This document shows, in pieces, positions 1,526 to 4,845 of a DNA stretch of 64,000 bases. The position numbers were made by a program, and so were the translations under genes. The stretch lies in the NCBI RefSeq assembly GCF_055900595.2, contig NZ_CM148325.1. One strand, given 5' to 3'. The notes beneath the pieces were generated by a model, which was given only the letters and a program-made list of their open reading frames with translations, was not told the origin of the DNA and searched no databases. Numbering within the stretch: position 1 is the stretch's first letter; each line of letters opens with the position of its first letter.

Positions 1526-2416
1526 ATGATGTTTAAGCAATACCTGCAAGTAACGAAACCAGGCATCATCTTTGGCAACCTGATCTCGGTGATTGGGGGA
1601 TTCCTGCTGGCCTCAAAGGGCAGCATTGATTATCCCCTGTTTATCTACACGCTGGTTGGGGTGTCACTGGTTGTGGCGTCGGGTTGTGTGTTTAACAACT
1701 ACATCGACAGGGATATCGACAGAAAGATGGAAAGGACGAAGAATCGGGTGCTGGTTAAGGGCCTGATCTCTCCTGCTGTCTCGCTGGTGTACGCCACCTT
1801 GCTGGGTATTGCTGGCTTTATGCTGCTGTGGTTTGGCGCGAATCCGCTGGCCTGCTGGCTGGGGGTGATGGGCTTTGTGGTTTATGTCGGCGTCTACAGC
1901 CTGTACATGAAACGCCACTCGGTCTACGGCACGTTGATTGGTTCGCTCTCCGGCGCAGCGCCGCCGGTGATTGGCTACTGTGCAGTGACAGGCGAGTTCG
2001 ATAGCGGCGCAGCGATCCTGCTGGCTATCTTCAGCCTGTGGCAGATGCCTCACTCTTATGCCATCGCCATTTTCCGCTTTAAGGATTATCAGGCGGCAAA
2101 CATTCCGGTGCTGCCAGTGGTGAAAGGCATTTCGGTAGCGAAAAACCACATTACGCTGTATATCATCGCCTTTGCCGTTGCCACGCTGATGCTCTCTCTT
2201 GGCGGTTACGCTGGGTATAAATATCTGGTGGTCGCCGCGGCGGTTAGCGTCTGGTGGTTAGGTATGGCCCTGCGCGGTTATAAAGTTGCTGATGACAGAA
2301 TCTGGGCGCGCAAGCTATTCGGCTTCTCGATCATCGCCATCACTGCCCTCTCGGTAATGATGTCCGTTGATTTTATGGTGCCGGACTCGCATACGCTGCT
2401 GGCTGCTGTGTGGTAA
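1526..2416 (+). CDS. cyoE: heme O synthase (protoheme IX farnesyltransferase)
   Basis: Start set to [16 protein letters not shown] (296 aa); UbiA-family polytopic membrane protein. Confidence 0.93.
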
Positions 2417-2430
2417 CACAACCTCTCTAT

Positions 2431-2459
2431 AAAAAAGGTGCTACGGCACCTTTTTTATT
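2431..2459. terminator. rho-independent terminator after cyoE
   Basis: aaaaaaGGTGCtacgGCACCttttttatt: GC stem flanked by A-run and T-run, so potentially bidirectional. Confidence 0.8.
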
Positions 2460-2469
2460 GTCTGAGAAC

Positions 2470-2547
2470 AGAGATACGGCTAATAACCGTATCTCTTGAC
2501 AGAGTGAGTATATGCACATAAATTAATCATACGGTTGATAGCCGTAT
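2470..2547 (+). promoter_or_regulatory. putative promoter/operator of the toxin-antitoxin operon
   Basis: Perfect 10-bp inverted repeat agagatacgg/ccgtatctct (2470..2496) overlaps TTGACA (2496..2501); a second atacgg/ccgtat palindrome at 2529..2547 shares the same core. Confidence 0.5.
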
Positions 2548-2600
2548 TATGCATGAGATCGACTCCCTACGATTTCATTCAGTTAATCAAAGAGGTCATA

Positions 2601-2912
2601 ATGCCTGGAAAAACAGTCGCTCTACCCGATATCGATAAAACGCTGAAAAATGCGCGGGTTGAACTCAAAACCAGTCCCGACGCCAAAAACAAACTTCGTG
2701 AAGCTGCGCAAGCCGTTGGGGTAGATTTAAGCGCTTTTATTTTGAGCGCAGCTATGGAACGCGCCGAAAGTGTGCTTGATAACCAACGTCGCCGTGAGCT
2801 TTCGAATCAAAGCTGGGAACTGATGAACCAACTCATCGCTGAACCTGCTCAACCGACGCTCGCCCTCAAGGCGTTAATGAAAAGGAAAAACAGCGATGGT
2901 CGACAAGCATGA
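2601..2912 (+). CDS. DUF1778-type antitoxin (TacA/AtaR/ItaR-like) of a GNAT toxin-antitoxin pair
   Basis: 103 aa from ATG 2601 with AGAGG Shine-Dalgarno upstream; the ORF-track start at 2535 is a non-ATG extension; immediately precedes and overlaps a GNAT ORF. Confidence 0.7.
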   Translation: MPGKTVALPDIDKTLKNARVELKTSPDAKNKLREAAQAVGVDLSAFILSAAMERAESVLDNQRRRELSNQSWELMNQLIAEPAQPTLALKALMKRKNSDGRQA

Positions 2913-3438
2913 AGAGATTACTCTGCCCATAGTCCTCTCCTGTAATTATCAGTCTGATATTACTTATCCTGGGCAAAAACAGTTTGATTGCGGTAACCCT
3001 GTTATCGATAAATTTGTACGCGCATCGCTAAAGAAAAGTGTGCGTAATAGCGACTGTGCTGCTAAAGCACTTATTGACAGACAAAGTGGTGAACTGATTG
3101 GCATCTGTACTTTTACGGCATATTCGCTGGAAAAACAACGCGTTTCTGGCGTCCTTCAGGGTTCACAACCTTCAGAGATTGGTGTTGTCAGATTAGTCAT
3201 GTTAGGGGTAGCGCGGAAATATCAAAAGCGGGGCTTTGGTCAGGACCTACTATGTGATTTTTTTGAACATGTAAAAATAATTCACCGGGCATTACCAATT
3301 AAAGGGGTTTATCTTGATGCTGACCCTGCCGCCATTAACTTTTATACTCGTCTCGGCTTTGTTCAGCTTTCAGCGAGGCCCAATGTTTTCGGTGCTGTAC
3401 CGATGTTTTTAGCGATTCAGCATATTCTCGCGGCTTAG
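2896..3438 (+). CDS. GNAT-family acetyltransferase toxin (TacT/AtaT/ItaT-like, predicted aminoacyl-tRNA acetylating)
   Basis: 180 aa; overlaps the upstream antitoxin by 17 nt; FDCG motif near N-terminus and Q-x-x-G-x-G acetyl-CoA motif (YQKRGFGQ). Confidence 0.7.
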   Translation: MVDKHEEITLPIVLSCNYQSDITYPGQKQFDCGNPVIDKFVRASLKKSVRNSDCAAKALIDRQSGELIGICTFTAYSLEKQRVSGVLQGSQPSEIGVVRLVMLGVARKYQKRGFGQDLLCDFFEHVKIIHRALPIKGVYLDADPAAINFYTRLGFVQLSARPNVFGAVPMFLAIQHILAA

Positions 3439-3682
3439 ATTATTATCGCCTCCGGCCATGGCAAGTTTTGCCTCAGCCGGAGACTGAGCAGCGTTACCAC
3501 TTTTGTTCAATTGCCCCCGCTTTCATCAGGTCCACATCCTTGCCTTTAATGGTTGCCGTTGCGGCAACGATCGTGGTCCTTATAGCTGCACAAGATTTTC
3601 GTTCAAATTCCGGTTTATAAAGAATAAGCAACGAATTACTGGTAAATGAATCAAGCCGGTAATCTGTAAAGTTAATATCCAG

Positions 3683-4429
3683 TCAGTTTAAGCCGAAAGG
3701 TGCAAAGCCGACCGTTTGAATAGTTTCCTTACCTGACGGACTCTTGATGTTGTACGTAACACGAAGATTGGCCACTTCGCCTAATTTATTGGTTTTGGCA
3801 AAGAGGCTATCCATGCAGGAAAAACCTTTATCTAAAAAATTATCCCGCATTCCAGAACGGGTAATCGTGATCACCGGTAACGTATCGTCAACCGTTTTTC
3901 TGTCAATCATATCTTTTCGACAGGCGGCCATAAAGTCTTCCGGACCAGCATAAATGTGAACACCCTTATCAAGATATTCTTTCGCTTTACTACAATCCAC
4001 CTCGACATACTGACCATTGGCGTACATCATGCCCAACCTGGACCATGCTAAATTCACACCGCGTTGCGTAGCCTGATTAAATAACGTATACGCTTTGGCG
4101 TAATCCACTCGCACCTGTTCACCTTCGTAGTAGATATTCCCCAGCGCTAACGGAGCTTCTTCATCACCTTGTTTAGCGGCTAACTCGAACCATTTAATGG
4201 CTTCCTGAACGTTGGGTTTGGTATCGTAGCGGGGCTGATAATATTCCCAGCCTAACAGGCTTTGCGCGTCGACATCCCCCGACTCAGCCATTTTATACAG
4301 TGTCCTTATCACATCGGGGGCAGGCTTTTCACTGTATATGCTGTCATACAATTCATGCGCTTTCTCGCTTGCCAGTGAACCTTGTGAGGCAATTAATAAA
4401 ATAGCCAATAAACTCTTTTTATTTAACAT
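3683..4429 (-). CDS. secreted Sel1/TPR-like repeat protein with an uncharacterised C-terminal domain
   Basis: 248 aa; N-terminal signal peptide MLNKKSLLAILLIASQGSLA; Sel1-like repeats (AAKQGDEEAPLALGNIYYEG, ATQRGVNLAWSRLGMMYANG); AT-rich. Confidence 0.65.
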   Translation of the reverse strand: MLNKKSLLAILLIASQGSLASEKAHELYDSIYSEKPAPDVIRTLYKMAESGDVDAQSLLGWEYYQPRYDTKPNVQEAIKWFELAAKQGDEEAPLALGNIYYEGEQVRVDYAKAYTLFNQATQRGVNLAWSRLGMMYANGQYVEVDCSKAKEYLDKGVHIYAGPEDFMAACRKDMIDRKTVDDTLPVITITRSGMRDNFLDKGFSCMDSLFAKTNKLGEVANLRVTYNIKSPSGKETIQTVGFAPFGLN

Positions 4430-4845
4430 AAATAACCTTTATGCATCCATCACTATATTTTTCAATATACCTAACCACCAAACATCCACTTCATGAATAA
4501 ATACACAGCCATAACAACCTCAGGTAATAAGTAAACATTTAAGCTGAAGCAGAATAACCAGCACCTCCAACACCTCTATTTATTGCGATAAAATAACACC
4601 ATCCTTTAATAAAAAATAACACACTCATCAACAAATCCGAAAATAATATCATTCGTGGCAGGATAAAATCAGGCGAGCTTTTCATTTGTTATATTTAACG
4701 CACAAAGTATTAATGGCAAGAATACGAGAGAAGCGCATGCCTGACGTAAAAATCACGCTCTTATGTAATATTTACTCATTAACACTCTGTTTACCCAACA
4801 TGCGCTCCGCACTACACTATGTGGGCAATTTTTTAAGAGGTGGTA

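What the first reader, a model, noticed from the sequence alone, without database searches (positions are those of the whole stretch)
2470..2547. Paired palindromes sharing an ATACGG/CCGTAT core flanking the TA promoter
Seen in sequence: a perfect 10-bp inverted repeat agagatacgg-N7-ccgtatctct whose right arm overlaps a TTGACA -35 hexamer, and about 30 bp downstream a second palindrome atacgg-N7-ccgtat just ahead of the antitoxin start. Two operators with the same core bracketing the promoter is the arrangement expected for autorepression by an antitoxin or toxin-antitoxin complex. The first palindrome also lies immediately after the cyoE terminator, so it could add to termination of cyo read-through.
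Basis: seen in the sequence. Interest (0 to 1): 0.45.

Follow-up and report, generated by a model that had tools for sequence, protein, structure and literature searches.

The report
Two ItaR operators flanking itaRT promoter
The two palindromes are almost certainly the DNA sites where the ItaR-ItaT toxin-antitoxin complex of E. coli sits to shut off its own promoter; this is an ordinary, expected regulatory arrangement whose exact sites had not been mapped for this module in the papers I could search.

Summary
The window is E. coli. Downstream of cyoE lies the known itaRT module: a DUF1778/RHH antitoxin (2601-2912) and the GNAT toxin ItaT (2896-3438).

Both palindromes (cores 2474-2492 and 2529-2547) are ATACGG-N7-CCGTAT. 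The core and spacing (TACGG-N7-CCGTA) match the operator co-crystallised with the homologous KacA-KacT complex (PDB 5ZGN).

In 22 related loci, from Enterobacterales to Nitrospirae, I found 27 exact TACGG-N7-CCGTA sites. All lie within 320 bp upstream of the antitoxin gene and none elsewhere (0.007 expected by chance).

In ten genera with the two-site layout, the invariant blocks of the intergenic region are the two sites, the -35 (TTGAC) and the TA...T of the -10 (17-bp spacer).

Site 1 always ends 4 nt before the -35. Site 2 follows the -10 and covers the predicted transcription start.

Wilcox et al. 2018 showed that the ItaR-ItaT complex represses this upstream region, but no operator was mapped.

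So these are new members of a known operator class. Interest is low to moderate. The most novel point is that the co-resident ataRT and itaRT modules share one operator core, which could allow cross-regulation.

The parts
2429..2458 (+). cyoE intrinsic terminator (AUAAAAAAGGUGC-UACG-GCACCUUUUUUAU). This is context, not part of the operator system. The left edge of the itaRT island lies just after it (about 2457-2460).
   Evidence: Perfect 13-bp stem (I2). Stable in the RNA fold. Essentially identical (one A/T difference) in itaRT-less K-12-like strains, where sequence diverges right after the T run.
2470..2496 (.). Operator O1. Core ATACGG-CTAATAA-CCGTAT at 2474-2492. The allele-specific extension AGAG/CTCT gives the 10-bp perfect inverted repeat. 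The core ends 4 nt before the -35, and the extended arm shares base 2496 with it. It spans about -57 to -39 relative to the predicted start.
   Evidence: Same core and spacing as the KacAT crystal operator. TACGG..T...A.CCGTA is invariant in 10 genera, with a fixed 4-nt gap to TTGAC.
2496..2501 (+). -35 hexamer TTGACA of the itaRT promoter
   Evidence: Promoter scan, 10 of 12 matches. TTGAC is invariant in 10 genera.
2519..2524 (+). -10 hexamer TAAATT, with a 17-bp spacer. The predicted transcription start is near 2531 (inferred, not mapped).
   Evidence: TA...T is invariant and the 17-bp spacer is constant in 10 genera.
2529..2547 (.). Operator O2, ATACGG-TTGATAG-CCGTAT. It begins 4 nt after the -10 and spans the predicted start (about -2 to +17). 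Its centre is 55 bp from the centre of O1.
   Evidence: CGG.T...A.CCGTA is invariant in 10 genera. Its position matches the single AtaR-type site, which lies just after the -10, and the KacA operator, which spans the transcription start.
2590..2595 (+). Shine-Dalgarno sequence AAGAGG of itaR
   Evidence: Sequence, 5 nt before the ATG at 2601. RefSeq annotates the same start in related strains.
2601..2912 (+). itaR: DUF1778/TacA-family ribbon-helix-helix antitoxin, 103 aa. The beta-strand KNARVELKTS (residues 16-25) is the predicted DNA reader.
   Evidence: Pfam PF08681, 1.1e-17. KacA 3.5e-11 and AtaR 8.6e-9 in the PDB, with KacA R8/D10/R12 aligned to ItaR R19/E21/K23. Of this strand, K16, R19-E21, K23 and S25 are invariant and N17, A18, L22 and T24 nearly invariant among 22 relatives.
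2896..3438 (+). itaT: GNAT acetyltransferase toxin, 180 aa, overlapping itaR by 17 nt
   Evidence: PDB 7BYY, 1.3e-115 over residues 1-180. GNAT Pfam domains. Gene pair as described for E. coli HS (PMC6125619).

Best explanation
P1 and P2 are the two operators (O1, O2) of the itaRT toxin-antitoxin operon.

By analogy with the KacAT-DNA and AtaRT-DNA structures, each TACGG arm is read by the two-stranded beta-sheet of one ItaR ribbon-helix-helix dimer. One ItaT-ItaR2-ItaR2-ItaT heterohexamer therefore covers one whole palindrome.

- O1 abuts the upstream edge of the -35 hexamer, so a complex bound there should block sigma region 4 and the alpha C-terminal domain of RNA polymerase.
- O2 starts 4 nt after the -10 and covers the predicted start site, so a complex bound there should block open-complex formation or promoter escape.
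- Together they would give tight autorepression when toxin and antitoxin are balanced. Loss of ItaR, or excess ItaT, would release the promoter.

Shown here: the sequences, their non-random occurrence, their identity to a structurally characterised operator, their conservation and their fixed position relative to the promoter.

Taken from the literature: repression of this upstream region needs the ItaR-ItaT complex and is not achieved by ItaR alone.

Inferred: the stoichiometry, the transcription start, and steric occlusion as the mechanism.
For: 1. Locus identity. The toxin matches ItaT (PDB 7BYY, E 1.3e-115). The antitoxin is a DUF1778/TacA family member. The module sits between cyoE and yajR in 1367-1369 of 5426 complete E. 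coli genomes.

2. Published function. A 172-bp upstream fragment drives about 40-fold expression. ItaR+ItaT returns it to near background, and ItaR alone has no effect (PMC6125619).

3. Match to a solved operator. [quoted passage not shown] P1 and P2 have the same TACGG-N7-CCGTA.

4. DNA-contacting residues. KacA R8, D10 and R12 align with ItaR R19, E21 and K23. These three residues are invariant in 22 ItaR-like proteins.

5. Comparative occurrence. In 22 loci (105.6 kb) there are 27 exact TACGG-N7-CCGTA sites. All lie within 320 bp upstream of the antitoxin gene and none elsewhere, against 0.007 expected. Two Nitrospirae loci carry one-mismatch sites in the same place.

6. Phylogenetic footprint. 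In ten genera with two sites, the invariant blocks are O1, TTGAC, TA...T and O2 (plus two isolated positions in each 7-nt gap). The O1-to-(-35) gap is always 4 nt and the promoter spacer is always 17 bp.

7. Variation within E. coli. Substitutions between alleles fall outside the cores and the hexamers.

8. Precedent for two sites. Salmonella TacAT shows two binding sites in its promoter by EMSA (PMC5449658).
Against: - No binding or footprint data exist for ItaR on this DNA in the papers I could search, and the transcription start is only predicted.
[quoted passage not shown] If that is literal rather than relative to the start codon, it would lack O2, and O1 alone would suffice for repression.
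- O1-O2 spacing varies from 54 to 60 bp among genera. Co-operation between the two bound complexes that depends on helical phase is therefore not indicated, and the need for two sites is unexplained.
- The palindrome arms never vary. Conservation therefore cannot formally distinguish DNA recognition from a sequence-constrained RNA hairpin at O2.
Confidence: 0.85

Rival explanations
1. P1 is mainly a second terminator or insulator hairpin that stops cyoABCDE read-through from entering itaRT.
For: P1 lies 11 nt after the cyoE terminator, and its RNA hairpin is predicted to form in both the MFE and centroid structures. Insulating a toxin operon from a strongly expressed upstream operon would make sense. 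A bound repressor could also act as a roadblock (inference).
Against: - There is no U tract after the stem (UGACAGAG), so the defining feature of an intrinsic terminator is absent. The terminator scan did not list it.
- The cyoE terminator is essentially unchanged (one A/T difference) in strains without itaRT and is a perfect 13-bp stem with a U run.
- The same O1 occurs 4 nt before the -35 in genera where the operon is not next to cyoE, for example L003, L006, L007 and L010.
- The stem extension beyond the core is broken in the common E. coli allele.
Confidence: 0.05
2. P2 acts at the RNA level. As a hairpin at the very 5' end of the itaRT mRNA it would control transcript stability or translation, and P1 is only a duplicated relic.
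For: If transcription starts near 2531, P2 is transcribed and can form a 6-bp stem with a 7-nt loop at the 5' end. 5'-terminal hairpins are known to stabilise E. coli mRNAs (general knowledge).
Against: - The arms are invariant in sequence with no compensatory changes across ten genera. Loop positions 2 and 6 are also invariant, which fits DNA recognition better than RNA pairing.
- O1, which has the same sequence, lies upstream of the promoter and is not transcribed from it.
- In Nitrospirae loci the site lies between the -35 and the -10.
- No Rfam family reaches threshold.
Confidence: 0.05
3. The palindromes are targets of an unrelated host regulator, or are recombination sites marking the edge of the itaRT island.
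For: P1 lies within about 15 nt of the left island boundary. One O157:H7 strain (TR01) has lost itaRT but keeps the whole P1 core fused to the yajR upstream region.
Against: - The motif travels with DUF1778 antitoxin genes in unrelated genomic contexts and phyla, and is absent from the rest of the 105.6 kb of flanking DNA.
- It has no other copy in the 64-kb window.
- Its position is fixed relative to the promoter hexamers, not to island ends.
Confidence: 0.03

Closest known systems
kacAT operator of Klebsiella pneumoniae (KacA4-KacT2-DNA crystal structure, PDB 5ZGN; PMC6698736)
   Same: - Same arm sequence and spacing, TACGG-N7-CCGTA, with an AT-rich centre.
- The operator overlaps the transcription start, like O2.
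- The antitoxin has the same fold family (E 3.5e-11), with aligned basic/acidic/basic reading residues.
- The toxin acts as co-repressor.
   Different: - kacAT is described with one palindrome, whereas itaRT has two, the extra one upstream of the -35.
- The KacA site extends as ATGTACGG...CCGTACAT. ItaR-branch sites are mostly ATACGG...CCGTAY with a CTA-N-TAG centre.
- The reading residues are R/D/R in KacA and R/E/K in ItaR.
- KacA alone binds DNA, whereas ItaR alone did not repress.
ataRT operator of E. coli O157:H7 (AtaR-AtaT heterohexamer on a palindromic operator; Jurenas et al. 2019, as summarised in PMC8138530 and PMC6698736)
   Same: - Upstream of ataR I found ATGTACGG-TGACATA-CCGTACAT immediately after a -10-like TATGCT. 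This is the same core and spacing, in the same position as O2.
- High-affinity binding needs the toxin-antitoxin complex. This matches the ItaRT-only repression.
   Different: - ataRT has a single site. It sits at a different chromosomal locus, between the liv binding-protein genes next to panM.
- AtaR aligns with ItaR only at E 8.6e-9.
- I could not read the primary AtaR paper.
tacAT promoter of Salmonella enterica (VanDrisse et al. 2017, PMC5449658)
   Same: Two separate binding sites for the TacA-TacT complex in the promoter region, shown by EMSA with split probes (-81 to -46 and -46 to -6). This is the same two-site logic.
   Different: I did not retrieve the sequences of the TacA sites, so I cannot say whether they carry the TACGG core. 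TacA acetylation by TacT changes binding, whereas ItaR was not found to be acetylated.

Membership tests
Operators of DUF1778 (TacA/KacA/AtaR-type) RHH antitoxins of GNAT toxin-antitoxin modules | Inverted repeat with TACGG arms separated by 7 bp, as in the operator co-crystallised with KacA-KacT | tested here: met
   P1 is TACGG-CTAATAA-CCGTA and P2 is TACGG-TTGATAG-CCGTA. The crystal operator is TACGG-TTATTAA-CCGTA.
Operators of DUF1778 (TacA/KacA/AtaR-type) RHH antitoxins of GNAT toxin-antitoxin modules | Located in, and overlapping, the core promoter of the operon that encodes the antitoxin | tested here: met
   The O1 core ends 4 nt before TTGACA and O2 begins 4 nt after TAAATT. The promoter hexamers are conserved in 10 genera. 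The transcription start is predicted only.
Operators of DUF1778 (TacA/KacA/AtaR-type) RHH antitoxins of GNAT toxin-antitoxin modules | Cognate antitoxin carries the N-terminal RHH beta-strand with the base-contacting residues (KacA R8, D10, R12) | tested here: met
   The alignment places ItaR R19, E21 and K23 at these positions, with conservative changes. They are invariant in 22 ItaR-like sequences.
Operators of DUF1778 (TacA/KacA/AtaR-type) RHH antitoxins of GNAT toxin-antitoxin modules | Motif co-occurs with orthologous and paralogous antitoxin genes regardless of genomic context | tested here: met
   27 exact sites upstream of the antitoxin in 22 loci, none elsewhere, 0.007 expected. AtaR-branch loci also carry it.
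Operators of DUF1778 (TacA/KacA/AtaR-type) RHH antitoxins of GNAT toxin-antitoxin modules | Physically bound by the antitoxin or the toxin-antitoxin complex, with repression depending on the site | not testable with these tools
   Indirect only. The ItaRT complex represses a 172-bp upstream fragment (PMC6125619). No site mutants or footprints were found in the held papers.
itaRT module (E. coli HS type) | GNAT toxin essentially identical to ItaT, preceded by an overlapping DUF1778 antitoxin gene | tested here: met
   PDB 7BYY, E 1.3e-115 over 180 residues. PF08681 antitoxin. 17-nt gene overlap.
Rho-independent (intrinsic) terminator, considered for P1 | Stable stem-loop immediately followed by a run of U | tested here: not met
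   The stem forms but is followed by UGACAGAG. It is not listed by the terminator scan.
Conditional cooperativity (regulation dependent on the toxin:antitoxin ratio, as in kacAT and ataRT) | Repression is strongest at a defined toxin:antitoxin ratio and is relieved by excess toxin | not testable with these tools
   Known for kacAT and ataRT. For itaRT it is only known that the complex represses and ItaR alone does not.

The most novel reading that the evidence does not exclude
The operator core TACGG-N7-CCGTA is shared by distant branches of the DUF1778 antitoxin family: ItaR, AtaR, KacA, and even relatives in Nitrospirae at 42-47% identity.

Paralogous modules with this core co-reside in one cell. 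Strain ECL27977 (NZ_OZ474909.1) carries both itaRT and ataRT. In the whole collection, ataRT is in 1625 and itaRT in 1369 of 5426 E. coli genomes.

The promoters of different GNAT toxin-antitoxin modules could therefore be cross-repressed by each other's complexes, forming a small regulatory network. The extra upstream site O1 in the ItaR branch might tune or insulate that cross-talk.

The held papers tested cross-neutralisation between proteins, not cross-binding to operators.
Probability: 0.25. Interest if true: 0.5.

Novelty: new member of a known kind. Interest (0 to 1): 0.25.

Why it matters
- It gives exact, testable operator coordinates for itaRT. The module's autoregulation was previously known only at the level of a 172-bp fragment.
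- It shows that a whole family of acetyltransferase toxin-antitoxin modules keeps one operator core across phyla, while the number and placement of sites change: upstream of the -35, after the -10, between the hexamers, or two sites.
- That makes cross-regulation between co-resident modules directly testable. It also gives a simple sequence signature (TACGG-N7-CCGTA next to a DUF1778 gene) for annotating promoters of this family.
- It does not change the general picture of type II toxin-antitoxin autoregulation.

Tried and rejected
- First Pfam call used the wrong frame (2602 instead of 2601) and failed. It was repeated correctly.
- The supplement of Wilcox et al. 2018, which has the reporter primer sequences, is not held. 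I could not decide whether the published reporter fragment includes O2.
- Jurenas et al. 2019 (AtaRT-DNA structure) is not held. I recovered the ataR upstream sequence from genomes instead.
- The Rfam scan of 2300-3000 at a permissive threshold gave only sub-threshold chance hits, so a known RNA element was rejected.
- The terminator scan flagged P2 on the minus strand (2547 to 2529) as terminator-like. I rejected this as an artefact of the palindrome being followed by AT-rich promoter DNA. No gene ends there on that strand.
- Phase-dependent looping between O1 and O2 was considered. It is not supported because the spacing varies from 54 to 60 bp among genera.
- The extended 10-bp arms of P1 were considered as the functional unit. 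This was rejected because the extension differs between genera and is broken in the common E. coli allele.
- Literature searches for a mapped ItaR operator, or for operator-level cross-talk among GNAT modules, found none.

Full report
**What is there**

The window is E. coli. Positions 2380-3480 are 100% identical to strain Z0117EC0005. The cyoBCDE genes run to 2416.

A perfect 13-bp stem with a T run (2429-2458) is the cyoE terminator. After it come, in order:
- palindrome P1: AGAGATACGG-CTAATAA-CCGTATCTCT, 2470-2496;
- TTGACA, 2496-2501;
- a 17-bp spacer;
- TAAATT, 2519-2524;
- palindrome P2: ATACGG-TTGATAG-CCGTAT, 2529-2547;
- a 53-nt leader containing the Shine-Dalgarno AAGAGG (2590-2595);
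- the ATG at 2601.

The two genes that follow are a DUF1778/TacA-family antitoxin (2601-2912; PF08681, E 1.1e-17) and a GNAT acetyltransferase (2896-3438). The acetyltransferase matches PDB 7BYY at E 1.3e-115 over all 180 residues. That makes it ItaT, so the pair is the itaRT module described from E. coli HS (PMC6125619).

The module, together with a Sel1-repeat gene on the other strand, is an island between cyoE and yajR. It is present in about 1368 of 5426 complete E. coli genomes. K-12-like strains have the cyoE terminator followed directly by yajR.

Yes.
- ATACGG-N7-CCGTAT, allowing one mismatch, occurs only at these two places in 64 kb, against 0.11 expected.
- The shorter TACGG-N7-CCGTA also has no other copy in the window.
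- Given one copy, the chance of a second exact copy within 100 bp is about 1e-5.
- Perfect inverted repeats of 10 bp or more are far commoner in the window than in simulated sequence. Most look like terminator-type hairpins. P1 differs from the cyoE terminator in lacking a T run, and it shares its core with P2.

Two refinements apply. P2 lies just after the -10, not just before the start codon. The perfect 10-bp arms of P1 belong to a rare allele. In the common allele (the 95-99% identity class, 1352 genomes) the right arm is CCGTATgTCT, while the ATACGG/CCGTAT core, the -35, the -10 and P2 are unchanged.

**What it is**

Three independent lines of evidence point to operators of ItaR.

1. *Literature.*
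   - A 172-bp fragment upstream of itaR has promoter activity of about 40-fold over background. Co-expressing ItaR and ItaT returns it to near background, and ItaR alone has no effect.
   - No operator was mapped there or in the later ItaT structure paper.
   - No other paper held in the library deals with ItaR.

2. *Match to a solved structure.*
   - The operator co-crystallised with the homologous KacA4-KacT2 complex of Klebsiella is AAATG-TACGG-TTATTAA-CCGTA-CATGA.
   - Two RHH dimers each read one arm, and the AT-rich centre is compressed (PMC6698736).
   - P1 and P2 have the same arms and the same 7-bp gap.
   - The KacA residues that contact bases (R8, D10, R12) align with ItaR R19, E21 and K23. 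Within the strand KNARVELKTS, K16, R19-E21, K23 and S25 are invariant among 22 ItaR-like proteins, down to 56% overall identity.

3. *Comparison of related loci.*
   - I collected 18 loci encoding ItaR relatives (15 Enterobacterales, 3 Nitrospirae MAGs) and 6 loci of the AtaR/KacA branch.
   - In the first 22 loci (105.6 kb) there are 27 exact TACGG-N7-CCGTA sites. All lie within 320 bp upstream of the antitoxin gene and none anywhere else, against 0.007 expected.
   - Two Nitrospirae loci carry one-mismatch sites in the same position.
   - Ten genera share the two-site layout: Escherichia, Pseudocitrobacter, Edaphovirga, Phytobacter, Rahnella, Buttiauxella, Trabulsiella, Chimaeribacter, Serratia and Kluyvera.
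   - Aligning their promoter regions gives a clean footprint. The invariant blocks are TACGG and CCGTA of site 1, TTGAC, TA...T, and CGG and CCGTA of site 2, plus two isolated positions in each 7-nt gap.
   - The gap between site 1 and the -35 is always 4 nt, and the -35/-10 spacer is always 17 bp.
   - The extended consensus in this branch is R-TACGG-CTA-N-TAG-CCGTA-Y.

**How it most likely works**

By analogy with 5ZGN, and with the AtaRT model summarised in PMC8138530, one ItaT-ItaR2-ItaR2-ItaT heterohexamer should occupy each palindrome.

O1 (core -57 to -39, counting from a predicted start at about 2531) abuts the -35. O2 (-2 to +17) covers the start site, as the KacA operator does.

Occupying both sites should exclude RNA polymerase from both ends of the promoter. 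The toxin's role would be to hold two RHH dimers at the right distance. That would explain why ItaR alone did not repress.

These steps are inferred: the stoichiometry, the transcription start, and steric occlusion as the mechanism.

The O1-O2 distance varies from 54 to 60 bp between genera. Each site's position relative to its promoter hexamer is kept far more tightly: exactly 4 nt for O1, and a few nt after the -10 for O2. I therefore favour two independently acting sites over a phase-dependent loop.

**Variation in the family**

- The AtaR/KacA branch has a single site, ATGTACGG-N7-CCGTACAT. In the E. coli and Salmonella loci (L019, L020) it lies just before the antitoxin start, after a -10-like hexamer in L019.
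- Xenorhabdus ItaR-like loci keep only a site upstream of a -35-like TTGC.
- Superficieibacter keeps only the site downstream of the promoter.
- In Nitrospirae the site lies just downstream of a TTGACA.
- Salmonella TacAT has two binding sites by EMSA, so a two-site promoter is not new for the family.

**The termination idea**

P1 can fold as an RNA hairpin, but three things argue against a terminator role:
- It is followed by UGACAGAG, not a U run.
- It belongs to the island, not to cyo. The cyoE terminator is essentially the same (one A/T difference) in strains without the island.
- The same O1 sits 4 nt before the -35 in genera where the operon is elsewhere.

A roadblock by bound repressor remains possible but is pure inference.

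**Other rivals**

- An RNA role for P2 is not favoured. The arms never show compensatory change, loop positions 2 and 6 are conserved too, the identical O1 is not transcribed from this promoter, and no Rfam family matches.
- A host regulator or a recombination site is not favoured. The motif follows the antitoxin gene across contexts and phyla.

**Comparison and novelty**

This is a new, unmapped member of a known operator class. It has the same motif and the same logic as kacAT and ataRT, and the two-site arrangement has a precedent in tacAT.

The most novel reading left open concerns cross-regulation. Distant branches of the family keep one operator core, and itaRT and ataRT co-reside in at least one E. 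coli genome (NZ_OZ474909.1 appears in both hit lists). ataRT is in 1625 and itaRT in 1369 of 5426 genomes. The complexes may therefore cross-regulate each other's promoters. The held literature tested only cross-neutralisation between proteins.

**Verdict**

- The main interpretation is supported, with about 0.85 confidence.
- The termination add-on is not supported.
- Interest is low to moderate (0.25).

Noticed in passing
L002:2391-2444, L004:2392-2445, L008:2361-2426: In the three Yersiniaceae loci (Edaphovirga, Rahnella, Serratia) the two-operator promoter lies 215-290 bp upstream of the antitoxin ATG. In between is a short ORF with a GGAG ribosome-binding site: MKFTANVFNLNRFRCIF, MRNQSKALNFSRFIKLS and MSLKKIQNLNNFKGIPFTGKR, which share an LN..(R)F pattern. 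This could be a leader peptide or a third small gene in an operon whose toxin attacks charged tRNAs.
   Followed up: partly
L026:1501-1539 (E. coli O157:H7 strain TR01); corresponds to window 2455-2493: This strain lacks itaRT but keeps the complete P1 core, ATACGGCTAATAACCGTAT, right after the cyoE terminator and fused to the yajR upstream region. It is a deletion scar that leaves an orphan operator, seen in 1 of 5426 genomes.
   Followed up: partly
window 2457-4750: The itaRT island also carries a Sel1/TPR-repeat gene on the minus strand (3683-4429; PF08238, E 1.4e-19). It is inserted between the cyoE terminator and yajR, and K-12-like strains have neither gene. In a Pseudocitrobacter MAG the orthologous module also follows a cyoE-like 3' end and terminator.
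   Followed up: partly
window 2535-2912: The mechanical ORF, and one database entry (P0001, 125 aa, E. coli IAI39), start at TTG 2535, inside operator O2. The real start is the ATG at 2601 behind AAGAGG, as RefSeq annotates it in other strains.
   Followed up: yes
NZ_OZ474909.1 (hits H61 and H76): The same E. coli genome carries both itaRT and ataRT, two paralogous modules with the same operator core. In the whole collection, ataRT is in 1625 and itaRT in 1369 of 5426 genomes. Phytobacter massiliensis may also carry both: the longest contig recorded for the AtaR-like protein P0143 has the same length, 535681 bp, as the contig of L003.
   Followed up: partly
L016-L018 (Nitrospirae MAGs), about 2440-2465: Antitoxins only 42-47% identical to ItaR still have a TACGG-N7-(C/T)CGTA site. 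Here it lies just downstream of a TTGACA hexamer, so the operator core is kept across phyla.
   Followed up: partly
window 2529-2547, minus strand: The terminator scan lists P2 as a terminator-like site on the minus strand. This is a false positive, caused by the palindrome lying next to AT-rich promoter DNA.
   Followed up: yes
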